A stretch of 13,672 nucleotides of DNA from a virus: UHGV virus genome UHGV-0140246; one strand, written 5' to 3'. A program made the translations under genes and the position numbers. The notes under the pieces were generated by a model. That model was given only the letters and a program-made list of their open reading frames with translations, was not told where the DNA came from and ran no database searches. Position 1 is the stretch's first letter, and each line of letters begins with the position of its first letter. Shown in pieces: positions 1-13,385 of the stretch.

Positions 1-1422
1 GTGAAATTATTCAGATTCTCTAAAGTAAAAATTGCAGAACTGCCAACGCCGGAACATGGACAAGTCGAATACGGTGATACGGAGGTTAACGGGTTGCGTG
101 TCCGTGTGGGTTCGTCAGGTGTGAAAAGTTTCTGCATTTCCCGTAAGCGTAACGGAAAATTTATTCGTGCAACGCTGGGGCGTTTTCCTGATCTGAGCGT
201 GGATAATGCCAGGGCTAAAGCTATGGAACTCCTTGGCGAAGTCGCCACAACGGGGAAAAACCCGAACATAGCGAAGCGCACGAACAACAAGGCCATGATA
301 ACGCTGAATGAGGCACTTGAAGCCTACATAAAAAATCGTGGCCACCGCCTGAAACCCACCACAGAAAAACAGTACCGCAGCATATTACAGAATTATTCCG
401 GTGACTGGATGGCCCATACCCTCGCCAGTATTTCCCGCGAACGTGTGGAACAGCGACATAAAGCCGTCACCGACGGGGCTGTATGGTTCGGTGCTGATAA
501 AACCACGCTACGGGCTGGTGTTGGTACGGGAAGCAAGGCACAGGCCGATTTATGGGCGCGTGCGCTGCGTGCTGTGTGTCGGTTTGCGCATGATCATTAC
601 CGTGATGATGCGGGTAATACTCTTTTACCGGATCCGCCGACTCTGGTACTGAGCACCAAGCGCCAGTGGCACGGAACGGTAAGAAAAACGGAACGTATCC
701 GCCTGCATGATTTTCCCCGCTGGTTTGCTGCTGTAGCTGCTGTACGCGAACAGGGCGAACAGGAAAGGGATGATATAGCGGTGACGGTATGCGATGCCGT
801 GGAAATGGCGCTTTTTACCGGACTGAGGAAATCAGAAATTTTTGGCCTTACGTGGGATCGCGTGAATATGGGCGGTCGTTTTTTCTGGATAGACACCACG
901 AAAAACGGGGATCCGCTCGAATTACCGATTACTGATACGTTGCGGGAAATGTTCCACCGCAGACTGAAAATAAAAAACGCTGATGATGTTCTGGTGTTCC
1001 CTGGTGTGAAGGGAGTGATTCAGGAAACACGGCACATCATAGACCGGATAAGCGCGGCTACTGTTTCTGATGATAATGATGAAATGCTCTCCCCTGTACC
1101 ATTCAAATGGCACGATGCGCGCCGGACGTTCGGGACGGTTGCCGAACTGGTGGGCGTGGGTAATTACATCCTCAAGCGCCTGATGAATCACCGCACTATG
1201 CGAAGTGCTGACGTAACGCAGGGGTATTTACATTTTGGTGCTGATGAACTGCTGGAGCCAGCATCACGGATAGAACGGGCAATTCTGGAAAATGCCGGGC
1301 TGGTGGAGAGTAAAAAATCTATCGATGCGCAATTGCTTTCTGTGCTGGAAAGCATGAGTGATGAAGAAAAACGGAAATTAATATTTTCTTTGATTCAAAA
1401 TGCAGAGGTGTCTAATAAATGA
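1..1422 (+). CDS. int: Tyrosine-type site-specific integrase (P4-like); the ORF begins with GTG at base 1, so the true start may lie upstream of the window
   Basis: 473-aa ORF; N-terminal arm-binding-like region (GLRVRVGSSGVKSFCISRKRNGKFIRATLGRFPDLSVDNARAKA); C-terminal catalytic region with WHDARRTF, MNHRTMRS and a candidate nucleophile Tyr in TQGYLHF; stop TGA 1420-1422. Confidence 0.85.
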   Translation: MKLFRFSKVKIAELPTPEHGQVEYGDTEVNGLRVRVGSSGVKSFCISRKRNGKFIRATLGRFPDLSVDNARAKAMELLGEVATTGKNPNIAKRTNNKAMITLNEALEAYIKNRGHRLKPTTEKQYRSILQNYSGDWMAHTLASISRERVEQRHKAVTDGAVWFGADKTTLRAGVGTGSKAQADLWARALRAVCRFAHDHYRDDAGNTLLPDPPTLVLSTKRQWHGTVRKTERIRLHDFPRWFAAVAAVREQGEQERDDIAVTVCDAVEMALFTGLRKSEIFGLTWDRVNMGGRFFWIDTTKNGDPLELPITDTLREMFHRRLKIKNADDVLVFPGVKGVIQETRHIIDRISAATVSDDNDEMLSPVPFKWHDARRTFGTVAELVGVGNYILKRLMNHRTMRSADVTQGYLHFGADELLEPASRIERAILENAGLVESKKSIDAQLLSVLESMSDEEKRKLIFSLIQNAEVSNK

Positions 1423-2219
1423 AATTTATCCCAGCAGATGAAGCCATTGATATGATGTTATCAAAAATGAACCATGAGGAAAAATTGGATTATTTAAAGG
1501 CAGCATGGGATTATGATTATAAAAAAATGAATGGGATACATTCTAAGTATGGTCTTTCATTTCCAATTCCTATCAGTGAATTAATGAGTGATGATGAGGC
1601 TAAAGAACTTGCTGGCGAAATGCTAAAATCACCAGTAACTGATGATGATATTATTTCTTCGATGTTGAATGAATTTGTTCCAGAAAGAAAAAGTAAGGTT
1701 TCTTTAGACGATTCTGTATCAATATTAAATGAGTTGCATCGGCTTGATTCTAATTTTAATAGTTTCAATGCCGCTAATCATTACCTTTCAGTATCATTGG
1801 GCGATGATGCTTTTACGGTGCTTAAGGCGTATTTATGTGCAGATGTTGCAGGCTGCGATAATCTTAAGAGTGATTTAATTAAGTTATATACTAAAATAAT
1901 TGTTAACTCATATCACGCTAAAGCATCTTCAATTGTTAGTAAGTCAAAAATCATCAGTGAAGACCGAAGTAAAGCAAAGAAAGGAAAAACAAACAGGCAT
2001 CAATCAACTGCGTTGGCTATAGCTGGTAGCACTTGGGAAAAATACCCTAATGCTAGTTTACCTGGGCTATCAGCAGAGATATACGCGCACTTACGCAATA
2101 AATGGAATGATGTCCCTGTAGTTGGGACTATAGAGAGATGGCTTAAGGAGTCGGGAATGAATCCAAAATCCCCGCAAAAAAATAGGGACTTTAAGTTAGT
2201 TATTGGAGACGAAGAATAA
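1419..2219 (+). CDS. Hypothetical protein, AT-rich cargo gene (266 aa), function unknown
   Basis: Long ORF whose ATG overlaps the int stop (ATGA at 1419-1422); I counted 20 G+C in its first 60 nt (about 33%), clearly below the GC-richer flanking genes; I recognise no motif in the translation. Confidence 0.6.
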   Translation: MKFIPADEAIDMMLSKMNHEEKLDYLKAAWDYDYKKMNGIHSKYGLSFPIPISELMSDDEAKELAGEMLKSPVTDDDIISSMLNEFVPERKSKVSLDDSVSILNELHRLDSNFNSFNAANHYLSVSLGDDAFTVLKAYLCADVAGCDNLKSDLIKLYTKIIVNSYHAKASSIVSKSKIISEDRSKAKKGKTNRHQSTALAIAGSTWEKYPNASLPGLSAEIYAHLRNKWNDVPVVGTIERWLKESGMNPKSPQKNRDFKLVIGDEE

Positions 2220-2559: not shown

Positions 2560-2763
2560 ATGGCTCAATTTGACCGCATAATCCGTGAGGCTGAATGCAG
2601 TAAGTTAACCGGGGTTAGCCGTACCACTCGCTATGAACTGGAGAAAAAAGGGAGCTTTCCGTCTCGCCGTAATCTTGGTGGGCGTTCTGTAGGTTGGTTG
2701 CTTTCCGAAGTTATGGACTGGGTGCAAAACCGTGACCGAGTTAATTCAGGTAAGGCAGCATAG
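2560..2763 (+). CDS. alpA: AlpA-family phage transcriptional regulator
   Basis: Internal ATG at 2560 preceded by GGGGGAG Shine-Dalgarno; translation MAQFDRIIREAECSKLTGVSRTTRYELEKKGSFPSRRNLGGRSVGWLLSEVMDWV fits the AlpA pattern (LTG-SR-T-Y, G-FP, GGRSV-W, EV-W). Confidence 0.7.
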   Translation: MAQFDRIIREAECSKLTGVSRTTRYELEKKGSFPSRRNLGGRSVGWLLSEVMDWVQNRDRVNSGKAA

Positions 2764-3753: not shown

Positions 3754-4053
3754 ATGAGAACATATTTATCTGGCTTGACTGCCAGCGGTTATGCACACCC
3801 CAAAATTATCCCCGGCGCTATTTATCTGGATAAGAACGGTAACAGAGTAACGGTAAAAGAACTGATGTTTGACCGTGTGTATTTTATTCGTGATGGCTAT
3901 TCATTTCATAGTTCGCTGAACGTGGAGATCTTTATTAGCAGATTCAGGCGGGAAATCCCGCTTTCCAGAAAAAACCATGTGTCACGTGTGAATGTGGATA
4001 AAAAACTACAGGAACTGAAAAACATGATTGCCGCGTGGAGAGAGCAGAAATGA
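3754..4053 (+). CDS. Hypothetical protein (99 aa)
   Basis: ORF whose stop overlaps the start of the primase gene (ATGA at 4050-4053). Confidence 0.55.
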   Translation: MRTYLSGLTASGYAHPKIIPGAIYLDKNGNRVTVKELMFDRVYFIRDGYSFHSSLNVEIFISRFRREIPLSRKNHVSRVNVDKKLQELKNMIAAWREQK

Positions 4054-5867
4054 AAAAAGCGCCAAATTTAAAACACCAGCCGCGTGACAAAATGACGGAA
4101 GTCATCATTTTTGCGGGTAGTGATGCGTGGGCACATGCGAAGCAGTGGCAGGAACAGGACGGGCGACTGGCTGGCGATAACGTGCCTCCTGTCTGGCTTG
4201 GAGAGCAACAACTTGCCGAACTGGACAACCTGCAAATCGTACCGGACGGACGCTATCGCGTGCGTCTCTATCAGGCGGGGTTATTGCGTCCGGGGCTTGT
4301 TAATACCATCGGGCAGAAACTGGCAGCGGCAGGTGTCAGGGATGCTGATTATTACCCTGAAGGAATGCACAGCCAGAAACGGGAGAACTGGCGCGAATAT
4401 CTGGAACGTGAGCGGGGAGAGCTGGCGGAAAAGAAAAAGGTAGTTGAACTGCCTGTAAAGAAAAAAGAGCGGGTAAAAGACGATAACGCTTCATCACTGG
4501 CGCTTAACCAGATGGGAGCAAGTCAACGCGGCGAAGTTCTCCTGGCACATTATGGCGGTGAACTGGCGATTCATGCCGACTCTGACACTGTTCACCATTA
4601 CAACGGCGTTGTATGGGAGCCGGTTCAGGATAAAGAGTTACAGCGTGCTATGGCGCAGATTTTCATTGATGCGGAGATCAGCTATTCGCAGAACGCCATT
4701 AAATCGGCGGTCGATACCATGAAGTTAAGTTTGCCTGTAATGGGGAATACAGCCCGTAACCTGATTGGATTCAGTAACGGGGTATTTGATACCAGAACAG
4801 GTAATTTTCGGGAGCATAACAAAAACGACTGGTTGTTAATTGCCAGTGAATTACCTTTCAGCCCACCAGCAGAGGGGGAAACGCTGGCAACACATGCGCC
4901 GAATTTCTGGAAGTGGTTACGCCGTTCGGTGGCTGAGAATGACCGCAAGGCGGATCGCGTACTGGCTGCATTATTCATGGTGCTGGCGAACCGGTACGAC
5001 TGGCAGTTATTCATTGAGGTAACAGGTCCAGGGGGAAGTGGTAAAAGCGTGATGGCGGAGATTTGCACCATGCTGGCGGGTAAGGCCAACACAGTATCGG
5101 CAAGCATGAAGGCGCTGGAAGATGCAAGGGAACGCGCGTTAGTGGTTGGCTTTTCGCTGATTATCATGCCGGATATGACCCGCTACGCTGGTGATGGGGC
5201 AGGGATTAAGGCTATTACAGGCGGTGACAAGGTGGCAATTGACCCGAAACACAAAGCCCCCTACTCAACGCGTATTCCGGCAGTAGTGCTGGCGGTTAAC
5301 AATAACGCCATGTCATTCAGTGACCGCAGTGGGGGGATCTCACGTCGTCGGGTGATATTCAATTTTTCGGAAGTTGTACCGGAGAACGAACGTGATCCAA
5401 TGCTGGCGGAAAAAATAGAAGGTGAGCTGGCGGTAGTGATTCGCCATCTGCTTACACGGTTTGCTGACCAGGACGAAGCCAGACGCCTGTTATATGAGCA
5501 GCAGAAATCTGAAGAAGCACTGGCGATAAAGCGAGAGGGGGATTCGCTGGTGGACTTCTGCGGCTATCTCATGGCGTCGGTAATGTGTGATGGCCTGTTA
5601 GTGGGTAATGCTGAAATTGTGCCATTCAGCCCACGCAGGTATCTCTATCATGCCTATCTGGCTTATATGAGGGCACATGGGTTTGGTAAACCTGTAACAC
5701 TGACGCGCTTCGGTAAAGATATGCCGGGGGCAATGGCGGAATATGGCAGGGAGTATATGAAACGGAAAACGAAGCACGGTTTGCGTTCAAACGTGACACT
5801 GACGGAGGAATCAGAAGACTGGATGCCATCATGTGTATCGGTCACTAATGACGATAGCAAAAATTAA
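4050..5867 (+). CDS. Primase/helicase replication protein (P4 alpha-like, P-loop NTPase); start probably ATG 4050 rather than GTG 4035
   Basis: About 605-aa ORF; Walker A motif TGPGGSGKS in the central region; GGAGAG Shine-Dalgarno before ATG 4050; an iteron cluster lies immediately downstream. Confidence 0.7.
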   Translation: MKKAPNLKHQPRDKMTEVIIFAGSDAWAHAKQWQEQDGRLAGDNVPPVWLGEQQLAELDNLQIVPDGRYRVRLYQAGLLRPGLVNTIGQKLAAAGVRDADYYPEGMHSQKRENWREYLERERGELAEKKKVVELPVKKKERVKDDNASSLALNQMGASQRGEVLLAHYGGELAIHADSDTVHHYNGVVWEPVQDKELQRAMAQIFIDAEISYSQNAIKSAVDTMKLSLPVMGNTARNLIGFSNGVFDTRTGNFREHNKNDWLLIASELPFSPPAEGETLATHAPNFWKWLRRSVAENDRKADRVLAALFMVLANRYDWQLFIEVTGPGGSGKSVMAEICTMLAGKANTVSASMKALEDARERALVVGFSLIIMPDMTRYAGDGAGIKAITGGDKVAIDPKHKAPYSTRIPAVVLAVNNNAMSFSDRSGGISRRRVIFNFSEVVPENERDPMLAEKIEGELAVVIRHLLTRFADQDEARRLLYEQQKSEEALAIKREGDSLVDFCGYLMASVMCDGLLVGNAEIVPFSPRRYLYHAYLAYMRAHGFGKPVTLTRFGKDMPGAMAEYGREYMKRKTKHGLRSNVTLTEESEDWMPSCVSVTNDDSKN

Positions 5868-5878
5868 ACTTATGGAAT

Positions 5879-6111
5879 AACTGTTCACCACTGTTCACCC
5901 TGTCATAAATATCTTTTGTATCAGTATGTTATAGGGTGAACAGTTATTTATGAACTGTTCACCAAACTATTCACTGTTCACCTTTTTGATTGTTTATTGA
6001 GCTTCAAGGGTGAACAGTGGTGAACAGTTGGTGAATAGTTTTTGTGAAACTGTTCACCCCTTAACATTATGAATTAAAAGATAAAATATCAAAAGGTGAA
6101 CAGGTGAAGGG
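5879..6111. repeat. Iteron cluster, candidate origin of replication: about 11 copies of TGTTCACC / GGTGAACA in both orientations within an AT-rich intergenic region
   Basis: Forward copies at 5882-5889, 5892-5899, 5956-5963, 5975-5982, 6051-6058; reverse copies at 5935-5942, 6009-6016, 6019-6026, 6095-6102; degenerate copies at 6030-6037 and 6104-6111. Confidence 0.75.
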
Positions 6112-6154
6112 TTAAAACGCAAAAATTTTAATTTACTGCTGTGAGATAAAGCCT

Positions 6155-6400
6155 ATGACAGCGAAGCACACAAAAAAATCACAATCGCACGCCCTTGATT
6201 TGACGGAACACTGGTTAAGGGTGTCGATAAAAATCATCGACCGCAACGCCGGGGAAGGATATGCGAAAGCACATCCCGAACTGATTAGCTCATTCATGAC
6301 AACGGCAGCTGCAAACTTTGCCACGCTGACAGAACGGGAGATTGCCGAAGCGGAACAGGTGACAACCATCAACGTTAAAACCGGAGAGCAGACAGCATGA
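6155..6400 (+). CDS. Hypothetical protein (81 aa)
   Basis: ORF co-oriented with the operon; its stop overlaps the SSB start (ATGA at 6397-6400); weak ribosome-binding site. Confidence 0.45.
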   Translation: MTAKHTKKSQSHALDLTEHWLRVSIKIIDRNAGEGYAKAHPELISSFMTTAAANFATLTEREIAEAEQVTTINVKTGEQTA

Positions 6401-6819
6401 CAGCACAGATAGCAGCTTACGGGCGGCTGGTGGCTGACCCGCAGTTAAAGACCACCAGCAAGGGCACACAAATGGCTATGGCAAGCATGGCGGTCCACCT
6501 GCCGTGCAATCAGGCAGATGACGGACAGGCGACGATGTGGTTATCCGTCCTGGCGTTTGGCAGACAGGCCGACGCACTGGCAAAACACCACAAAGGCGAG
6601 CTGGTGAGCGTGGCGGGTAACATGCAGGTAAGCCAGTGGACAGGCCAGAACGGGGAAACGCGGCAGGGCTGGCAGGTTATCGCAGACAGCGTAATCAGTG
6701 CCAGAACGGCGCGACCTGGTGGCAAAAAAGGCCAGCAGGGTCAGGCTACTGACGCTCTAAATAGGGCTAAGCAACAGGCGGGGAATGATGATCCATACGG
6801 GGATAACATACCCTTTTAG
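6397..6819 (+). CDS. Single-stranded DNA-binding protein-like (SSB-like)
   Basis: 140-aa ORF; N-terminus MTAQIAAYGRLVADPQLKTTSKG resembles the start of an SSB OB-fold; Gly/Gln-rich linker; C-terminus DDPYGDNIPF resembles the acidic SSB tail ending in IPF. Confidence 0.65.
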   Translation: MTAQIAAYGRLVADPQLKTTSKGTQMAMASMAVHLPCNQADDGQATMWLSVLAFGRQADALAKHHKGELVSVAGNMQVSQWTGQNGETRQGWQVIADSVISARTARPGGKKGQQGQATDALNRAKQQAGNDDPYGDNIPF

Positions 6820-6836
6820 CGATAACAGGGGGATAC

Positions 6837-7085
6837 ATGCCAGTGACATTTGAAGAAGTTCAGCAACATAAAAAGTTTCATGGTATTGATGATCTGGAAA
6901 CCACGACAGCAAAAAAATATCGCCGTCTGCTTTCTTCCGATGCGTTATTTGTTGTGGATCATCATGATTTTCTGCGCAGCTCACTGACCGGGGAAATTTT
7001 CGCAACCAACCGTGAGCAGGTGGAAGCGATGATCGAATATTTGTGGAAAATAAGGCGCAGAATGCGCGATCCCGTGAAACAGTAA
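6837..7085 (+). CDS. Hypothetical protein (82 aa)
   Basis: ORF preceded by GGGGGA Shine-Dalgarno; followed 10 nt later by a strong terminator. Confidence 0.5.
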   Translation: MPVTFEEVQQHKKFHGIDDLETTTAKKYRRLLSSDALFVVDHHDFLRSSLTGEIFATNREQVEAMIEYLWKIRRRMRDPVKQ

Positions 7086-7094
7086 AGCGATAAA

Positions 7095-7122
7095 GGCCCG
7101 GATTTTTCCCGGGTCTTTTTTT
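7095..7122 (+). terminator. Rho-independent terminator ending the replication operon
   Basis: Stem GGCCCGG / CCGGGTC (7095-7101 and 7109-7115) with a 7-nt loop, followed by seven T (7116-7122). Confidence 0.7.
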
Positions 7123-7359
7123 CAGGTTTTGTAAATTATTTGTTCGTGGTTGTTTCTGGCTGTTCAGTGATTCTGGCTGATATTTACATACTGATTTTTA
7201 TGTATATGTTGGCGTGTGGCACTCAGACGTGAGCCGCCACAATGCCGCCTGACCCCCTGCGCGATGCCGGGTTGATCTGCGAGATGCCGAGAGTGTCGGG
7301 CGGCGCTCCCTCCGTGTTGGTTTCACGTCCTGAATCTTAACCAATACGAGAAAACCTTC

Positions 7360-8529
7360 ATGAAGAAATTAATCGAACTCCGCCAGCAAAAAACCGCCCT
7401 GAAAAACCAGATGCGATCCCTGCTGGAAAAAGCCGACAGTGAAAACCGCAGCCTGAACGATGACGAGGGCAAACAGTTTGATGAACTGCGTGCAAAAGCC
7501 GACTCCCTCGACACAGAAATTTCCCGCCTCGAGTCTGTGGCTGATGAAGAACGCAGCAAGCCAGGAACGGGCATCCAGAAATTATCATCTGATGAATTGC
7601 GTAACTACATCGTAACCGGAGATGTGCGATCACTGTCCACCAGCACTGACAGCGGCAGGGATGGCGGATATACCGTAATTCCTGAGCTCGATCGCGAAGT
7701 CATGCGCCAGCTACAGGATGACAGTGTTATGCGCGTGATCGCGACCGTGAAGACTGCAAAATCAAATGAGTTTCAGAAACTGGTTTCCACTGGCGGCGCA
7801 ACTGTAGGACGAGGCACAGAAGGCAGCGCACGCAGTGAAACCAACACCCCGAAAATTGAACGCGTAACCATCAAGCTGAATCCGATCTACGCCTACCCGA
7901 AAACCACGCAGGAAATCCTTGATTTTTCAGAGGTGGATATTCTGGGCTGGTTATCCTCCGAAATTGCCGACACGTTCGCCAGCACCGAAGAGGATGATTT
8001 TGTTAATGGCGACGGTAACGGCAAGCCGAAAGGCTTCATGGCTTACACCCGTGCGGCGACCAGTGACAAAACCCGCGCTTTTGGCACCATTGAAAAAATG
8101 GTAGCGGCAAGTGGAACCGCCATTACAGCGGACGAACTGATCGACATTCTCTACAAGCTGAAAGCGAAATACCGCAAAAATGCCGTCTGGGTGATGAACT
8201 CGGGCACGGCAGGGACACTACAGAAGCTGAAAAATGAGAACGGCGATTATATCTGGCGCGACAGCCTTAAAGAAGGTGCGCCGGATATGTTGCTTGGTCG
8301 TCCTGTTTACTGCCTGGAGTCCATGCCGGACATCGGCGCAGGAAAAGCACCGCTAGCGGTTGGCGATTTCAGTCGTGGTTATTTCATCGTTGATCATGTA
8401 ACAGGGATTCGCACCCGACCGGACAACATTACTGAACCCGGATTCTACAAGGTCCACACGGATAAATATCTGGGCGGTGGTGTGGTGGATTCAAACGCCA
8501 TCAAAATTCTGGAAATGAAAGCTGGCTAG
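7360..8529 (+). CDS. Major capsid protein, HK97 family
   Basis: 389-aa ORF; N-terminal coiled-coil-like region (MKKLIELRQQKTALKNQMRSLLEKAD...) followed by GGYTVIPELDREVMRQLQDDSVMRVIATVKT, typical of HK97-fold capsid proteins. Confidence 0.8.
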   Translation: MKKLIELRQQKTALKNQMRSLLEKADSENRSLNDDEGKQFDELRAKADSLDTEISRLESVADEERSKPGTGIQKLSSDELRNYIVTGDVRSLSTSTDSGRDGGYTVIPELDREVMRQLQDDSVMRVIATVKTAKSNEFQKLVSTGGATVGRGTEGSARSETNTPKIERVTIKLNPIYAYPKTTQEILDFSEVDILGWLSSEIADTFASTEEDDFVNGDGNGKPKGFMAYTRAATSDKTRAFGTIEKMVAASGTAITADELIDILYKLKAKYRKNAVWVMNSGTAGTLQKLKNENGDYIWRDSLKEGAPDMLLGRPVYCLESMPDIGAGKAPLAVGDFSRGYFIVDHVTGIRTRPDNITEPGFYKVHTDKYLGGGVVDSNAIKILEMKAG

Positions 8530-8540
8530 TCATGAGTAAG

Positions 8541-8563
8541 GAGGAGGCTGCGGCCTCCTTTTT
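8541..8563 (+). terminator. Hairpin plus T-tract immediately after the capsid gene; candidate partial terminator/attenuator
   Basis: Stem AGGAGGC / GCCTCCT (8542-8548 and 8553-8559), 4-nt loop, then TTTT (8560-8563). Confidence 0.45.
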
Positions 8564-8583
8564 CAGCTTTATGGAGTACACCG

Positions 8584-9144
8584 ATGAAAAACACCGATTT
8601 TGAAATCCGCACATCTGAACTGACCGCCAGCAATAAAAAGCTGGTGGGGTATGCCGTTCGCTGGAACAGCCTTTCAGAAATTATCTGGGACGAATTCCGC
8701 GAACAGTTCACGCCGGGGGCTTTTGCTGACTATCTGGCGGCGGGTAATGATGTGCGCTGCCTGTATGAGCATGACTATACCCAACTGCTGGGGCGCACCA
8801 AATCCGGCACTCTGGTACTGACTGAGGATAACACCGGGTTACGTTTTGAACTGACACCGCCGGATACCCAGCTTGGAAAAGATGTGCTTACGCTGGTGGA
8901 GCGTGGCGACATTACAGGAATGAGCTTTGGTTTTCGCGCATTATGCGAGGAGTGGAGTATCGCGCAAAAACCGTATTTGCGTACCGTAACCGCCGCTGAA
9001 CTCCGTGAAATCACAATAACGTCGATGCCTGCTTATCCAGAATCTGGCGTGGAGATTGCCCACCGTTCGTTGTTTGCACAGCACCCTGAATTATGCCCGA
9101 CAGGAAATAATCGTCATCGCTGGTCTGAGCTGGCGGGGTTGTGA
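8584..9144 (+). CDS. Prohead maturation protease, HK97 family
   Basis: 186-aa ORF; LVGYAVRWNSLSEIIWDEFREQFTPGAFADYL and ITGMSFGFR motifs match my recollection of HK97-type prohead proteases. Confidence 0.75.
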   Translation: MKNTDFEIRTSELTASNKKLVGYAVRWNSLSEIIWDEFREQFTPGAFADYLAAGNDVRCLYEHDYTQLLGRTKSGTLVLTEDNTGLRFELTPPDTQLGKDVLTLVERGDITGMSFGFRALCEEWSIAQKPYLRTVTAAELREITITSMPAYPESGVEIAHRSLFAQHPELCPTGNNRHRWSELAGL

Positions 9145-9145
9145 T

Positions 9146-10360
9146 ATGTGGTGGCCTTTTAGTCGTAAAAAAAGCGAGCAGCGTAACCTGTCCATTGATG
9201 ATTTTCTGGCGCTGTCCGGCGTACCGAATACCGGATCCGGAGAATATGTTTCTGCCGGGACGGCTGAATCATTGCCTGCAGTGATGAATGCGGTTTCTGT
9301 CATCGCTGAGGCGGTGGCCACGATGCCGTGTTATCTGTATCTGGTACGTAATGACAAGGGCAGGGAGGCGCGGGAATGGCTGGACAGTCACCCGGTAGAT
9401 ATTCTGCTGAATGAGCAGCCTAATTCGTGCCAGACACCTTACCAGTTTAAACGCACAATGATGCGTCACTGCCTGCTGAACGGTAACGCCTATGCGGTTA
9501 TTGAGTGGGGGCAGGACGGGCAGCCAAAATCACTTCATCCTTATGCGCCGGGGTGTGTTGTACCGGAACGCACAGGCGCACACAAATACCGCTATACCAT
9601 CACCGAACCCTATACAGGAACGGTGCGCACGTATTTACAGGAAGAAGTTCTGCATCTCCGCTATGCCTCGGATGATGGCTTTCTGGGGCGCTCCCCCGTC
9701 ACGATTTGCCGTGAGGCACTTGGGCTTGGCCTTGCTCAACAGCGCCACGGAGCCAGCATTATGAAAGATGGCATGATGGCGGCAGGGATTATCACGTCAG
9801 GCGAATGGCTGGACGGCGTGAAAGGTAAACAGGCATTGGATGCTCTGGAACGCTACAAGGGGGCGAAAAATGCCGGAAAAACGCCAATCCTTGAAGGGGG
9901 CATGGATTACAGGCAACTGGGAATGAGTAACCAGGATGCGGAATGGCTGGCCTCCCGTCGCTTCTCCATTGAAGACATCGCCCGCATGTTCAACGTATCG
10001 CCTATTTTTCTGCAGGAATACAGCAACAGCACCTACAGCAATTTCAGCGAGGCAAGCCGCGCGTTTCTGACCATGACAATGCGCCCGTGGCTGGCGAACT
10101 TCGAACAGCAAATCAAGGCCGCTTTGCTGGTGGCTTCTCCCGTACCTGGTACCCGTTATCTGGTTGAGTTTGATTCAGCCGATTTATTACGCGCCACACC
10201 CACCGAACGTTATGCCACGTATGAGAAAGGGATTAAGAACGGGATCATGAATCCGAACGAAGCCCGTGAGCGTGAGGGTATGCCGCCGCGTGAAGGTGGT
10301 GATGAGTTCAGCCAGGCATGGAAACAGACTGTGGAAATTAAAGGGAGAAAAGATGATTGA
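9146..10360 (+). CDS. Portal protein, HK97 family; start taken as ATG 9146, 1 nt after the protease stop
   Basis: About 404-aa product; LPAVMNAVSVIAEAVATMPCYLY motif near the N-terminus; the ORF is open from 9056 but that would overlap the protease gene by about 90 nt. Confidence 0.75.
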   Translation: MWWPFSRKKSEQRNLSIDDFLALSGVPNTGSGEYVSAGTAESLPAVMNAVSVIAEAVATMPCYLYLVRNDKGREAREWLDSHPVDILLNEQPNSCQTPYQFKRTMMRHCLLNGNAYAVIEWGQDGQPKSLHPYAPGCVVPERTGAHKYRYTITEPYTGTVRTYLQEEVLHLRYASDDGFLGRSPVTICREALGLGLAQQRHGASIMKDGMMAAGIITSGEWLDGVKGKQALDALERYKGAKNAGKTPILEGGMDYRQLGMSNQDAEWLASRRFSIEDIARMFNVSPIFLQEYSNSTYSNFSEASRAFLTMTMRPWLANFEQQIKAALLVASPVPGTRYLVEFDSADLLRATPTERYATYEKGIKNGIMNPNEAREREGMPPREGGDEFSQAWKQTVEIKGRKDD

Positions 10361-10655
10361 AGCCAGAATTACACCTGATGAAGTCAGGGCACATCTTCGA
10401 CTTGATGATGATTTATCCGGTGAAGGCGAACTTCTGAAAATGTATACCGATGCGGCGCTGGAAGCCTGCCAGAAGCATATCGGGAAACGTTTTGAAGACG
10501 GGCTGGAATTTACCCCGGCAATGCGTGTTGGTTGCCTGATGTACATCGCTTTCCTGTACGAGAACCGGGAAGCGGTTTCACCAGTGGAGCACTCGGAACT
10601 GCCTATGGCTATTTCTGCGCTCTGGTCAGTTTATCGTGACGTAGGGGTGTACTGA
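10353..10655 (+). CDS. Head-tail connector protein (gp6-like)
   Basis: Internal ATG at 10353 preceded by GGGAGAAAAG; translation MIEARITPDEVRAHLRLDDDLSGEGELLKMYTDAALEACQ resembles the gp6-like connector family; overlaps the portal stop. Confidence 0.65.
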   Translation: MIEARITPDEVRAHLRLDDDLSGEGELLKMYTDAALEACQKHIGKRFEDGLEFTPAMRVGCLMYIAFLYENREAVSPVEHSELPMAISALWSVYRDVGVY

Positions 10656-11095
10656 TGCCGTGGCAACCATTAAGGCGATGCACTGAGCCTGGCTGTAATA
10701 AGCGCGTGAAGTCCGGCAAGTGTGAAGAGCACAGGCGGGCTGCATGGCGTGCAGAGGATGCCAGACGGGGACACCGCCGCGCGCGCGGGTATTCCCGACA
10801 GTGGGACAAATACCGCGCCCTGTACCTGAGCAAAAACCCGTTATGCGTGCGTTGTCTGGCTAAGGGGATTTATACGCCAGCTCTTGTGGTGGATCACATC
10901 ATTCCCATCAATGGCGGCGGTGATGTTCTCTTCTGGCCTGAGTGGAATCACCAGGCATTGTGCCAGACGTGCCACAACCGTAAGACGACACGGGAAGATC
11001 CAGCCACGAAAGCAAACCGTAAAGCGGGCATGTATCGCGAGCAGGAAGAACGGGCGGCACACCGTAACGACTGGATGTATGGCGATGATGACTGA
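10655..11095 (+). CDS. HNH endonuclease (phage packaging-associated)
   Basis: 146-aa ORF; Cys-rich N-terminus; HNH-like core DHIIPINGGG...NHQALCQTCHNRKT; located immediately upstream of the terminase genes. Confidence 0.8.
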   Translation: MPWQPLRRCTEPGCNKRVKSGKCEEHRRAAWRAEDARRGHRRARGYSRQWDKYRALYLSKNPLCVRCLAKGIYTPALVVDHIIPINGGGDVLFWPEWNHQALCQTCHNRKTTREDPATKANRKAGMYREQEERAAHRNDWMYGDDD

Positions 11096-11264
11096 ACAGG
11101 AGCAAACCAGGCTGATACGTGGACTGATAAGGCAGCGTGACACATGGAAGACACAGGAGACAGAGCACAAAGCCAACAGGACAGGGCGCACAAAACGCAC
11201 CACAGCGAAGCGATTAACCGACCGTGACCGCGAGGTCATGGAATGTTTTCGCAATCGCTGGTGA
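11079..11264 (+). CDS. Possible small basic protein overlapping the HNH 3' end in another frame; existence uncertain
   Basis: ORF from ATG 11079 (alternative ATGs at 11085 and 11088) encoding MAMMTEQEQTRLIRGLIRQRDTWKTQETEHKANRTGRTKRTTAKRLTDRDREVMECFRNRW; no clear Shine-Dalgarno. Confidence 0.3.
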   Translation: MAMMTEQEQTRLIRGLIRQRDTWKTQETEHKANRTGRTKRTTAKRLTDRDREVMECFRNRW

Positions 11265-11383
11265 GGCCGTCAGAGGGGGTGGGGGTGGTTTTCAGGACGA
11301 AACCGTCCCTGCCGGACACCGACCGCCCCCTCAAATTTTTGTGCACGGTAATTTTTTTGAAAATAATTGGGCGAAAAAAGAAC
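11265..11383. other. Candidate cos/packaging-signal region between the HNH gene and terS
   Basis: G-runs CAGAGGGGGTGGGGGTGG (11271-11288); nested inverted repeats GAGGGGG (11273-11279) / CCCCCTC (11326-11332) and GGACG / CGTCC (11295-11308); followed by AT-rich T-tracts 11336-11357. Confidence 0.4.
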
Positions 11384-11740
11384 ATGGCAAGACCACCAAA
11401 AGCCCCCGCTTACCTGGATGAAATCGCGGTCAGGCAGTGGAAGGAAAAATCGCGCCAGCTTTCCGGGCGGGAAGACCTTACCCCCGCCGACTGGAGCAAT
11501 CTGGAACTGTATTGCGTTAACTACTCCATATACCGCAAAGCCGTCGAAGACCTTGCGACGCGCGGGTTCAGCATTGTTAACAGTCAGGGCAGCGAGAGCA
11601 GAAACCCCGCCCTGAGCGCAAAGGCTGACGCAGAAAGAATAATGATCAAAATGGCTTCTTTGCTGGGTTTTGACCCGGTAAGCCGCCGCAGAAATCCACC
11701 GGAAACAGAGGAAGAGGACGAGCTTGACTGCCTGGCATGA
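11384..11740 (+). CDS. terS: Terminase small subunit, P27 family-like
   Basis: Internal ATG at 11384; N-terminus MARPPKAPAYLDEIAVRQWKE matches what I recall of P27-family TerS; about 118 aa; the ORF is open from 11243 but that part overlaps the cos-like region. Confidence 0.7.
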   Translation: MARPPKAPAYLDEIAVRQWKEKSRQLSGREDLTPADWSNLELYCVNYSIYRKAVEDLATRGFSIVNSQGSESRNPALSAKADAERIMIKMASLLGFDPVSRRRNPPETEEEDELDCLA

Positions 11741-13385
11741 GTACGCAGAAGGCGTAAAAAACGGCAAAATTACGGCCTGTAAACGACTGAAACAGGCCGT
11801 TAAACGGTATTTTTCTGACCTTGAAAACCCCCTTTACACGTTCGATCCGGAGGTCGTTGAGCGGTTTATTGCCTTTTCCAGGGTGTGTCCGCACGTAAAA
11901 GGCGCAATGCGTGGTAGCCCCATTGAGCTGGAGCCGTGGCAGCAGTTCGCCTTTGCGTGCATCCTGGGCTTTAAGGTTAAGGCCACCGGACGGCGCAAAT
12001 ACACCAGCGCATTCATTGAAGTACCGCGAAAAAATGCCAAATCCACGGTCGCCGCTATCCTGGCTAACTGGTTTCTGGTTATGGAAAACGGGCAGCAGGA
12101 TATTTACACCGCCGCCGTGAGTCGTGATCAGGCGCGGATCGTGTTTGATGATGCGCGTCAGATGTGCCTTTTATCCCGACCGTTACGAAAGCGGGTAAAT
12201 ATTCAGGCACACAAGGTGATACACCCGAAAACCAACAGCCTGTTAAAGCCACTGGCAGCAAAAGCAGCAACCATTGAAGGTACAAACCCGAGTCTTGCCA
12301 TTGTGGATGAATATCACCTGCACCCTGACAACGGGGTTTATTCCGCGCTTGAACTGGGAATGGGGGCACGCCCAGAGGGGCTGTTATTTGCCATCACCAC
12401 ATCGGGGAGCAACGTTGTTTCAGCCTGTAAACAACACTACGACTATTGCTGCCAGATACTGGATGGTGAAGAGGTGAACGAATCCATGTTCGTGCTGATT
12501 TATGAGCTGGATGATGAAAGCGAGGTTGACGATCCGGCGATGTGGATAAAGGCGAATCCCAATATCGATGTTTCCGTAGATCGTGAAAAACTGGCCTCAA
12601 CCATCCAGAAAGCGCGGGGTATTCCGTCGCAGTGGGTGGAAATGCTCACCAAGCGATTCAATATCTGGTGTCAGGGGGCTACGCCGTGGATGGGTAACGG
12701 TGCATGGGCTGAGTGCGCCGGAACGTTCACGGAGGAAGATTTACACGGTCAGGAGTGTTACGCGGGGCTTGATTTATCATCCACAAGCGACATCTCCAGC
12801 GTGTGCTATGCCTTTCCGGTTGGTAAAACCATTATGCTGGTTTCTCGTCACTATCTGCCGGAATTTCAGCTACAGAACCCCGCCAATAAAAACCGCGCCA
12901 TCTATCGCCAGTGGGCAAAGGCGGGCTGGATACGCACAACACCGGGTGACTGCATTGATTATGACCGTATCCGTGATGACATCATGCTGGATGCAGAGAA
13001 TTTCAATATCAGGCTGGTGGGCTTTGATACGTGGAACGCCACGCACCTGAGAACGCAGTTACAGGGGGCAGGCTTTGAGGTGGAGCCGTTCCCTCAAACC
13101 TACCTTCGTTTCAGTCCGGCGGCGAAATCGTTCGAGGTTTTTGTTAACCGGAAGGTGATTGTGCATCGTGGTGATCCTGTGCTGGCCTGGTCAATGAGTA
13201 ATGTTGTGATGCAGAGTGACGCGAACGCCAATATCAAGCCGAACAAGAAAAAATCATCCAACAAGATAGACCCGAGCGTTGCGGCGCTGATGGCGTTTGG
13301 CACATTCCAGGCTGAGCATGAGGAATTTGCATTTGATATGAGCGACAGCCAGAAAGAGCGACTAGCGGCGTTTGATGGGGTATGA
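11724..13385 (+). CDS. terL: Terminase large subunit; apparent TTG start at 11724 with GAGGA Shine-Dalgarno 5 nt upstream
   Basis: 553-aa ORF overlapping the terS 3' end by 17 nt; first in-frame ATG lies about 60 codons further in; size and position after terS fit a large terminase. Confidence 0.8.
   Translation: MTAWHEYAEGVKNGKITACKRLKQAVKRYFSDLENPLYTFDPEVVERFIAFSRVCPHVKGAMRGSPIELEPWQQFAFACILGFKVKATGRRKYTSAFIEVPRKNAKSTVAAILANWFLVMENGQQDIYTAAVSRDQARIVFDDARQMCLLSRPLRKRVNIQAHKVIHPKTNSLLKPLAAKAATIEGTNPSLAIVDEYHLHPDNGVYSALELGMGARPEGLLFAITTSGSNVVSACKQHYDYCCQILDGEEVNESMFVLIYELDDESEVDDPAMWIKANPNIDVSVDREKLASTIQKARGIPSQWVEMLTKRFNIWCQGATPWMGNGAWAECAGTFTEEDLHGQECYAGLDLSSTSDISSVCYAFPVGKTIMLVSRHYLPEFQLQNPANKNRAIYRQWAKAGWIRTTPGDCIDYDRIRDDIMLDAENFNIRLVGFDTWNATHLRTQLQGAGFEVEPFPQTYLRFSPAAKSFEVFVNRKVIVHRGDPVLAWSMSNVVMQSDANANIKPNKKKSSNKIDPSVAALMAFGTFQAEHEEFAFDMSDSQKERLAAFDGV

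What the first reader, a model, noticed from the sequence alone, without database searches (positions are those of the whole stretch)
6397..6819. Island-encoded SSB-like protein with a host-like IPF tail
A short SSB-like protein ends in DDPYGDNIPF, resembling the acidic C-terminal tip of bacterial SSB (ending DDDIPF), which is the docking site for many replication and repair proteins. A satellite-encoded SSB with a variant tip could support island replication or compete with host SSB for its partners.
Basis: partly seen in the sequence, partly recalled or inferred. Interest (0 to 1): 0.45.

Follow-up and report, generated by a model that had tools for sequence, protein, structure and literature searches.

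The report
Phage-satellite single-stranded DNA-binding protein gene
This is an ordinary, already annotated single-stranded-DNA-binding protein gene in the replication module of an E. coli phage satellite; its slightly unusual tail is a family trait, not a new kind of system.

Summary
The ORF at 6397-6819(+) encodes a 140-aa protein ending in DDPYGDNIPF. It is a bacterial-type SSB: Pfam PF00436 E=4.9e-17, TIGR00621 above cut-off, and an AlphaFold OB fold whose 50 best PDB matches are all SSBs. Three of the four E. coli base-stacking aromatics are kept. After residue 103 the protein is a disordered linker plus tip. dN/dS is about 0.1-0.2.

The tip is a conserved family variant. In 110 close homologs the Asp at -5, the aromatic at -7 and the final Pro-Phe are invariant (Ile at -3 in 106). 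Position -6 is usually Gly and -4 is free (N/D/G/E).

The gene sits about 290 bp downstream of a P4-type origin (10 ACTGTTCACC iterons) and a P4-alpha-like helicase, inside a capsid-forming PICI-like island. It keeps this position with several swapped initiator types and in other Enterobacterales.

RefSeq already names it SSB, megablast finds it in 1472 of 5426 complete E. coli genomes, and a 2023 paper lists SSB as a Gram-negative PICI replication gene. P4 and one related satellite lack it, so it is accessory.

Most likely it coats ssDNA during satellite replication and docks host SSB partners, probably more weakly than host SSB. Competition with host SSB is untested.

Novelty: already known. 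Interest is low.

The parts
6397..6819 (+). ssb gene: 140-aa satellite SSB, stop codon included
   Evidence: ORF. Pfam PF00436 E=4.9e-17. TIGR00621 63.9 bits against cut-off 53.95. RefSeq names homologs 'single-stranded DNA-binding protein'.
6397..6702 (+). OB-fold ssDNA-binding domain (residues 1-102)
   Evidence: AlphaFold block pLDDT is 74-92 over residues 1-100. The 50 best Foldseek PDB matches are all bacterial SSBs, with target-normalised TM-score 0.65-0.80. W48, F54 and W81 align to E. coli W54, F60 and W88. They are invariant in 48 close homologs and aromatic in 66-67 of 68 distant relatives.
6703..6786 (+). Basic, disordered linker (residues 103-130), with a weakly predicted helix at 117-127
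   Evidence: Almost all residues from 104 on have pLDDT <50. The linker occurs in at least three cassette-like variants among close homologs, while the OB domain and tip are kept.
6787..6816 (+). C-terminal tip DDPYGDNIPF (residues 131-140), the presumed protein-docking motif
   Evidence: In 110 close homologs: D(-5) 110/110, Y/F/W(-7) 110/110, I(-3) 106/110, P(-2) and F(-1) 110/110. Position -6 is Gly in 91. Position -4 is N58/D20/G19/E11/S2.
5880..6104 (.). Origin-like iteron cluster: 10 copies of ACTGTTCACC in both orientations, in AT-rich DNA
   Evidence: 12 matches at up to 1 mismatch in the whole window against 0.72 expected by chance; 10 of them lie at 5880-6104. GC is 32-36%. The core TGTTCACC equals the annotated 'ori type 1 repeat' of P4.
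4035..5867 (+). Replication initiator helicase: P4-alpha-like D5_N/DUF5906/Pox_D5 core plus C-terminal origin-binding domain, with an N-terminal 145-aa domain of unknown function
   Evidence: Pfam. The P4 alpha C-terminal domain structure 1ka8 matches residues 502-598 with E=1.8e-24. 50.8% identity to P4 alpha. No Zn-ribbon or Toprim domain was found.
6155..6400 (+). 81-aa ORF (phrog_1231, function unknown); its stop overlaps the ssb start
   Evidence: PHROG E=8.3e-49. 71-99% identical in L001-L003 and absent from L004.
6837..7085 (+). 82-aa ORF (phrog_1957, function unknown) just downstream of ssb
   Evidence: PHROG E=8e-37. 100% identical in L001 and L004.
3754..4053 (+). DUF4222 gene overlapping the start of the initiator gene
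   Evidence: Pfam PF13973 E=7.3e-17. It holds the same position in L001-L004.
1..1422 (+). [quoted passage not shown]
   Evidence: Pfam Phage_integrase plus Arm-DNA-bind_3.
2560..2763 (+). AlpA-family regulator
   Evidence: Pfam Phage_AlpA E=3.1e-17.
7360..13385 (+). Capsid and packaging module: HK97-type capsid, S78 protease, portal, connector, HNH, TerS and TerL. No tail genes.
   Evidence: Pfam. RefSeq annotation of near-identical islands.

Best explanation
The gene encodes a functional bacterial-type SSB that is an accessory part of the satellite's replication module.

Proposed mechanism:
1. A helper phage induces the island.
2. The P4-alpha-like helicase binds the TGTTCACC iterons just upstream of ssb and unwinds the origin.
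3. The satellite SSB, expressed from the same rightward gene block, coats the exposed single strands through its OB domain.
4. Its disordered arm, ending in ...D-x-I-P-F, docks into the hydrophobic pocket used by host SSB partners such as the Pol III chi subunit, DnaG and PriA. This couples the satellite fork to the host replisome.

Because the acidic residues at -6 and -4 are missing, this docking is expected to be weaker or more selective than that of host SSB.

Shown here: family membership, predicted fold, conserved DNA-stacking residues, the conserved tip, purifying selection, and placement next to the origin and helicase.

Inferred: ssDNA binding, oligomeric state, timing of expression, which partners the tail binds, and any benefit to satellite replication.
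For: - SSB profile hits are above curated cut-offs.
- The AlphaFold model is an OB fold, and its 50 best Foldseek PDB hits are all SSBs.
- W48, F54 and W81 match E. coli W54, F60 and W88. They are conserved in close and distant relatives.
- The C-terminal third is disordered and its tip is conserved.
- dN/dS is 0.08-0.19.
- The gene starts 293 bp after the last of 10 P4-type iterons, downstream of a helicase with a P4-alpha origin-binding domain.
- In E. coli islands, ssb keeps this position with D5-, DUF927- and RepA-type initiator cores.
- In 11 of 15 loci from other species (mostly Enterobacterales genera), ssb follows a helicase of the DUF927 or P4-alpha/D5 type.
- Mageeney et al. place SSB with Primase and DUF5906 in the 'Replication' category of Gram-negative PICIs, colocalised with mapped origins (PMC10111431).
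- The roles of the P-F pocket and of the acidic contacts are documented for chi (PMC3045619).
Against: - No biochemical or genetic data exist for this protein.
- P4 itself, and the cf-PICI-like 'phage' vB_KppS-Ant with an 86.6%-identical initiator and similar iterons, have no ssb at this position. The gene is therefore not required for this replicon type.
- Host SSB is abundant, so the benefit is unclear.
- The tip departs from DDDIPF at two of the three acidic positions. In other genera it drifts further (APF, PPF, DDF) or is lost. A strict host-partner constraint would not predict this.
- The E. coli W40 equivalent is Cys and the H55 equivalent is Leu.
Confidence: 0.72

Rival explanations
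1. The satellite SSB has a private partner. Its tail is tuned mainly to a satellite or helper-phage protein rather than to host SSB partners. One candidate is the N-terminal domain shared by the different island initiators. The precedents are HK620 SSB, which uses its NDYPPF tail for Sak4, and T7 gp2.5, whose tail binds its own polymerase and helicase.
For: - The tip differs from the host tip at -6 and -4 and varies between genera.
- The three E. coli island initiator types that accompany ssb share a 69-97% identical N-terminal ~145-aa domain of unknown function.
- HK620 is a precedent for a variant MGE SSB tail serving a cognate partner (PMC5928155).
Against: - No interaction data exist.
- The N-terminal domain model is of low confidence and has no informative structural match.
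- In several other genera, ssb follows initiators in which tblastn found no match to this N-terminal domain.
- The invariant P-F with a free C-terminus is just what host partners recognise.
Confidence: 0.12
2. The protein is an interference or competition factor. It occupies ssDNA or titrates SSB-binding proteins so as to slow helper-phage or host DNA metabolism in favour of the satellite.
For: - Satellites commonly interfere with their helpers.
- The tail keeps the I-P-F needed to enter partner pockets.
Against: - With two acidic contacts lost, it should be a poorer competitor than host SSB.
- The gene lies in the replication block, not in the packaging or interference block.
- PADLOC gives no defence-system match.
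- The DNA-binding residues are fully conserved, as expected for a working SSB rather than a decoy.
Confidence: 0.08
3. The gene is a non-functional or decaying passenger, carried along with the origin cassette.
For: - Related satellites lack it.
- Truncated or tail-less copies occur in some genomes.
Against: - dN/dS is 0.08-0.19 over the whole gene.
- The tip is unchanged despite synonymous divergence.
- Full-length copies (at least 80% of the gene) occur in 972 complete E. coli genomes.
Confidence: 0.04

Closest known systems
E. coli chromosomal SSB (PDB 1eqq, 178 aa)
   Same: - Same OB-fold family.
- The W54, F60 and W88 equivalents are kept.
- The K73-G74 and L45-hairpin motifs are similar.
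- Both have a disordered linker and a C-terminal ...D-x-I-P-F tip.
   Different: - Only 24% identity over 98 residues.
- It fails the E. coli-type NCBIfam model (26.5 against 260 bits).
- W40 is Cys and H55 is Leu.
- The linker is about 28 aa and basic, rather than about 55 aa and rich in Gly, Gln and Pro.
- The tip is GDNIPF rather than DDDIPF.
'SSB' gene family of Gram-negative PICIs and helper-embedded PICIs (Mageeney et al. 2023, PMC10111431)
   Same: - Same kind of element and the same position with Primase/DUF5906 and the origin.
- The O157:H7 copy (L002) sits in an island inserted into a prophage terminase gene, as that paper describes.
   Different: That paper only categorises the family. 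It does not analyse the tail, the fold or the function.
Phage HK620 SSB
   Same: A mobile-element SSB with a variant tail (NDYPPF). Experiments show the tail is needed for partner recruitment.
   Different: - HK620 SSB is paired with the Sak4 annealase, and no annealase gene lies next to this ssb.
- Sequence relatedness was not tested here. No phage record is more than 31% identical to this protein.
Satellite phage P4 replicon (alpha, ori, crr)
   Same: - The helicase and origin-binding core is 50.8% identical.
- The iteron core TGTTCACC is identical.
- The iteron cluster lies just downstream of the initiator gene, like the P4 crr.
   Different: - P4 has no ssb.
- P4 alpha has an N-terminal primase region, which this 610-aa protein replaces with an unrelated 145-aa domain.
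Conjugative-plasmid SSBs (F-type)
   Same: They are accessory SSBs carried by mobile elements. That they can substitute for host SSB is from my own knowledge.
   Different: Those are close relatives of host SSB, and this protein is not. Only 66 of 72,556 plasmid records match it at all, and only 2 of those are conjugative.

Membership tests
Bacterial-type SSB (Pfam PF00436 / TIGR00621) | The sequence matches the family profile above the curated cut-off | tested here: met
   PF00436 scores 62.3 bits against 26. TIGR00621 scores 63.9 against 53.95.
Bacterial-type SSB (Pfam PF00436 / TIGR00621) | OB fold with an SSB-like long beta-hairpin | tested here: met
   The AlphaFold model has block pLDDT 74-92 for residues 1-100. 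All 50 best Foldseek PDB hits are SSBs, probability 1.00.
Bacterial-type SSB (Pfam PF00436 / TIGR00621) | Aromatic base-stacking residues (E. coli W40, W54, F60, W88) | tested here: met
   Three of four are kept (W48, F54, W81). The W40 position is Cys and varies across the wider family.
Bacterial-type SSB (Pfam PF00436 / TIGR00621) | Disordered linker plus an acidic-hydrophobic C-terminal tip ending in Pro-Phe | tested here: met
   Almost all residues from 104 on have pLDDT <50. The DDPYGDNIPF tip is conserved in 110 homologs.
Bacterial-type SSB (Pfam PF00436 / TIGR00621) | High-affinity ssDNA binding as a homo-oligomer | not testable with these tools
   This needs EMSA or fluorescence titration, and SEC-MALS.
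E. coli housekeeping-type SSB (NF006533/PRK09010; tip DDDIPF) | Match to the enterobacterial SSB subfamily model, and the exact DDDIPF tip | tested here: not met
   NF006533 scores 26.5 bits against a cut-off of 260. Identity is 24%. The tip is GDNIPF.
Capsid-forming PICI (cf-PICI) | Integrase, AlpA and a primase/replication gene with the origin downstream, all co-oriented | tested here: met
Capsid-forming PICI (cf-PICI) | Own capsid, protease, portal, head-tail connector, HNH, TerS and TerL, and no tail genes | tested here: met
   Pfam hits. The near-identical island in L004 ends one small ORF after TerL, with no tail genes. The right end of the island lies outside the window.
Capsid-forming PICI (cf-PICI) | Helper-phage-dependent induction and the use of helper tails | not testable with these tools
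   This needs induction and transfer experiments.
P4-type replicon | Alpha-type helicase with a C-terminal origin-binding domain and TGTTCACC iterons | tested here: met
   1ka8 E=1.8e-24. 50.8% identity to alpha. Iterons.
P4-type replicon | Primase domain in the initiator. Pfam finds a Zn-ribbon plus Toprim in the homologous initiators of L010 and L011. | tested here: not met
   Pfam finds no such domain in the 610-aa protein. The initiators at the homologous position in Buttiauxella (L010, L011) have Zn_Ribbon_Prim plus Toprim_3.
Anti-phage defence system component | Match to a known defence-system protein model | tested here: not met
   PADLOC gives no hit for the SSB, p81, p82 or two other island ORFs.

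The most novel reading that the evidence does not exclude
The satellite SSB may not be just a spare copy of a host function. Its conserved but de-acidified tip (D-D-P-Y-G-D-x-I-P-F) and basic linker could be tuned to a satellite-specific partner. The best candidate is the ~145-aa N-terminal domain that the D5-, DUF927- and RepA-type island initiators all share. That domain replaces the primase region of P4 alpha. The SSB would then organise a private satellite replisome, or divert host primase and polymerase to the satellite origin at the helper's expense.
Probability: 0.1. Interest if true: 0.5.

Novelty: already known. Interest (0 to 1): 0.15.

Why it matters
As it stands the finding matters little. 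Mobile elements often carry their own SSB. This one is already named as such in RefSeq and is already listed as a PICI replication gene.

Three modest points could still be useful:
- The gene is very common: megablast finds it in 27% of complete E. coli genomes.
- It marks the origin-proximal end of the satellite replication module.
- Its tip gives a natural series of variants (N/D/G/E at -4, Gly at -6) for asking which acidic contacts SSB partners really need.

If the tail proved to serve a satellite-specific partner, it would help explain how these islands replicate with an initiator in which no primase domain is detectable.

Tried and rejected
- **Defence role:** PADLOC gave no hits for the SSB or neighbouring small ORFs.
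- **RNA features:** Rfam at gathering threshold and ARAGORN found nothing in the window.
- **Promoter and terminator scan, 5700-7450:** counts were at or below shuffle expectation, so this was uninformative.
- **N-terminal domain of the initiator:** the single-sequence AlphaFold model had pLDDT 64 and a generic Rossmann-like alpha/beta topology. No PDB match had E below 0.01. This is inconclusive.
- **Permissive Pfam scan of that domain, p81 and p82:** nothing meaningful.
- **Full-text search for the iteron TGTTCACC:** it returned only unrelated primer sequences. The P4 GenBank annotation gave the check instead.
- **Phage origin of the gene:** no phage record is more than 31% identical.
- **Plasmid origin of the gene:** 66 plasmid records match, mostly non-mobilizable, and one of them is a mislabelled chromosome.
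- **Mixed tetramers with host SSB, and binding of the tail to chi, DnaG or PriA:** these could not be modelled, because no multimer prediction is available.
- **cf-PICI papers:** they do not mention ssb. Nor does the large satellite survey.

Full report
**1. Observation**

The ORF at 6397-6819 (+) is real. It starts with ATG, encodes 140 codons, ends with TAG, and the protein ends ...NDDPYGDNIPF. A GGAGAG motif precedes the start. The start overlaps the stop of an upstream 81-codon ORF (ATGA), which suggests the two are translated together.

**2. Identity of the protein**

- Pfam SSB (PF00436) matches residues 5-99 with 62.3 bits, E=4.9e-17.
- NCBIfam TIGR00621 is passed, 63.9 bits against a cut-off of 53.95.
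- The enterobacterial housekeeping model NF006533 is far from passed, 26.5 against 260 bits.
- PHROG 44 'single strand DNA binding protein' gives E=5.7e-40.
- phmmer against PDB sequences returns almost only SSBs. The best are the Thermus, Deinococcus and Thermotoga proteins. E. coli SSB scores E=2.5e-5.

I checked my remembered E. coli SSB sequence against PDB chain 1eqq_A, and it is identical over residues 1-178. BLASTP against it gives 24% identity over 98 residues. In that alignment:

| E. coli residue | This protein |
|---|---|
| W54 | W48 |
| F60 | F54 |
| W88 | W81 |
| W40 | C37 |
| H55 | L49 |

W48, F54 and W81 are invariant in 48 close homologs. They are aromatic in 67, 67 and 66 of 68 distant family representatives.

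An AlphaFold model built on that alignment has a confident beta-barrel over residues 1-101, with block pLDDT of 74-92. Almost everything from residue 104 on has pLDDT below 50, with only a weakly predicted helix at 117-127. All 50 best Foldseek matches in the PDB are bacterial SSB OB domains, with probability 1.00 and target-normalised TM-score of 0.65-0.80.

ssDNA binding itself cannot be tested here.

**3. The tail**

Among 110 close homologs (72-97% identical) that end in Pro-Phe, the last ten positions read as follows:

| Position | Residues (count) |
|---|---|
| -10 | D 100 |
| -9 | D 100 |
| -8 | P 99 |
| -7 | Y 92 / F 12 / W 6 |
| -6 | G 91 |
| -5 | D 110 |
| -4 | N 58 / D 20 / G 19 / E 11 / S 2 |
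| -3 | I 106 |
| -2 | P 110 |
| -1 | F 110 |

More distant relatives are one representative per 50% cluster. 370 of them have E<=1e-10. Those that end in Pro-Phe show the canonical P-F-D-D-[DE]-[IL]-P-F.

This subfamily has therefore kept the hydrophobic end, the -5 Asp and the -7 aromatic. It has lost the -6 Asp and freed position -4.

The published model of the chi-SSB complex places P176 and F177 in a hydrophobic pocket. It pairs D174 (-4) with chi R128, D173 (-5) with R135, and D172 (-6) with K132 (PMC3045619). By that model this tail can still enter partner pockets. It lacks two of the three acidic contacts, so I expect weaker or more selective binding. That expectation is an inference.

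The whole gene is under purifying selection, with pairwise dN/dS of 0.08-0.19. Against the O157:H7 copy, the linker and tip have dN=0 with dS about 0.5.

In other genera the tip drifts: IPF, APF, PPF, VPF, DDF, and in a few cases it is lost. This is looser than expected for a housekeeping SSB.

The linker is basic and occurs in at least three cassette-like variants.

**4. Context**

The window is a capsid-forming PICI-like satellite. Its genes, in order:

- integrase (1-1422)
- HTH and AlpA regulators
- a YlcI-like gene on the opposite strand
- a DUF4222 gene
- a 610-aa initiator helicase (4035-5867)
- an AT-rich gap
- p81, ssb and p82
- HK97-type capsid, S78 protease, portal, connector, HNH, TerS and TerL

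No tail genes are present, neither here nor in the near-identical island L004, which ends just after TerL.

The gap holds 10 copies of ACTGTTCACC in both orientations at 5880-6104. The whole window has 12 matches, against 0.72 expected by chance. GC there is 32-36%.

The initiator's C-terminus matches the solved origin-binding domain of P4 alpha (1ka8, E=1.8e-24). Its core is 50.8% identical to P4 alpha. The iteron core TGTTCACC is exactly the annotated 'ori type 1 repeat' of P4, and it lies downstream of the initiator gene like the P4 crr. So ssb starts about 290 bp beyond a P4-type origin.

**5. Is the link to the replication module conserved?**

Yes. The initiator cores vary between E. coli islands, but ssb stays:

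- D5-type core in the window, L001 and L002
- 'RepA family' helicase core in an O157:H7 island (L003)
- DUF927 core, with different iterons (TAACCCGCA), in L004

A scan of one genome per species returned 15 loci. Most are Enterobacterales: Escherichia albertii, Leclercia, Buttiauxella, Pectobacterium, Serratia, Pantoea, Rahnella and Yokenella. One record is titled Chryseobacterium, and one is an alphaproteobacterial MAG. In 11 of the 15, ssb lies downstream of an initiator helicase: DUF927-type in nine, at gaps of about 90-750 bp, and full-length P4-alpha-type with Zn-ribbon plus Toprim in two, 0.8-1.4 kb upstream.

The gene is not universal, however. P4 has none. 'Escherichia phage vB_KppS-Ant' is a 16.5-kb cf-PICI-like record with an 86.6%-identical initiator and similar iterons. 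It goes from the origin to the capsid gene without ssb, p81 or p82. The SSB is thus an accessory component of the replicon, not an essential one.

**6. Prior knowledge**

- RefSeq annotates the gene as 'single-stranded DNA-binding protein'.
- Megablast finds it in 1472 of 5426 complete E. coli genomes. 972 of them have at least 80% coverage, and strain KSC9 has a 100% identical copy.
- Mageeney et al. 2023 list SSB with Primase and DUF5906 in the 'Replication' category of Gram-negative PICIs, colocalised with mapped origins (PMC10111431). That paper also describes islands embedded in prophage late genes, which is the situation of L002.
- The cf-PICI papers and the large satellite survey do not mention ssb.
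- No phage record holds a close homolog; the best is 31% identical. Plasmid matches are few.
- A mobile-element SSB whose variant tail serves a cognate partner has a precedent in HK620 (tail NDYPPF, partner Sak4; PMC5928155).

**7. Mechanism and rivals**

The best-supported reading is an accessory replication SSB. It coats ssDNA opened at the P4-type origin and uses its I-P-F tip to engage host SSB partners. I give this a confidence of about 0.7.

| Rival reading | Confidence | Main reason for the low weight |
|---|---|---|
| Tail tuned to a private satellite partner | about 0.12 | No interaction data |
| Competitor of host SSB | about 0.08 | Disfavoured by the lost acidic contacts and by the gene's place in the replication block |
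| Decaying passenger | about 0.04 | Contradicted by dN/dS |

**8. Verdict**

The feature is ordinary and already known, and the tail variant is a family trait of modest interest.

Noticed in passing
window 5880-6104: An origin-like cluster of 10 ACTGTTCACC iterons in both orientations, in 32-36% GC DNA. The core is identical to the annotated 'ori type 1 repeat' TGTTCACC of phage P4. It lies just downstream of the initiator gene, like the P4 crr.
   Followed up: yes
window 4035-4470 (initiator residues 1-145); L003 7137-7520; L004 5535-5915: The 610-aa 'primase' has the P4-alpha helicase and origin-binding core but no detectable Zn-ribbon or Toprim primase domain. Homologs at the same position in Buttiauxella (L010, L011) do have these domains. 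Its N-terminal ~145 aa is shared at 69-97% identity with islands whose initiator cores are DUF927-type or RepA-type, so it looks like a swappable docking domain of unknown function. The single-sequence AlphaFold model gives a Rossmann-like alpha/beta fold with no informative PDB match.
   Followed up: partly
window 6155-6400; L004 7674-7885: An 81-aa ORF (phrog_1231, unknown function) has a stop that overlaps the ssb start. It is 71-99% identical in three E. coli islands. It is missing from the DUF927-type island, whose different iterons (TAACCCGCA) end at a recombination joint inside the last ~10 codons of this ORF.
   Followed up: partly
L002 (E. coli O157:H7 Z1836, NZ_CP062778.1 1790747-1800634): The same initiator-p81-ssb module sits in a different island. 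That island is inserted into the large terminase gene of a prophage and carries a ClpP-protease/capsid fusion gene. It is a helper-embedded PICI of the kind described in PMC10111431.
   Followed up: partly
L020 (LR881103.1, 'Escherichia phage vB_KppS-Ant') 9938-12290: A 16.5-kb record deposited as a phage looks like a cf-PICI. It has an integrase, an initiator whose helicase and origin-binding core is 86.6% identical, GTGTTCACC iterons, capsid, portal and terminase genes. It has no ssb, p81 or p82 between the origin and the capsid gene.
   Followed up: partly
window 6703-6786 (SSB residues 103-130) and homologs P0073, P0081, P0098: Among close homologs the SSB linker occurs in at least three alternative cassette-like versions, with conserved OB domain and tip on either side. 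The linker is unusually basic (six Lys/Arg, one Asp).
   Followed up: partly
window 6837-7085: An 82-aa ORF (phrog_1957, unknown function) lies directly downstream of ssb. It is 100% identical in two other islands. Pfam gives only sub-threshold hits.
   Followed up: no
L001 10204-11349 versus window 7360-8529: In strain A41 the capsid gene is only 68% identical to the window's, while the flanking protease, portal, HNH and terminase genes are 97-100% identical. This suggests local replacement of the capsid gene.
   Followed up: no
window 1419-2219: A 266-aa ORF overlaps the integrase stop. It has no Pfam, PADLOC or NCBIfam match. The corresponding slot in L001 holds a different gene (DUF6387). 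It may be a variable cargo position.
   Followed up: no
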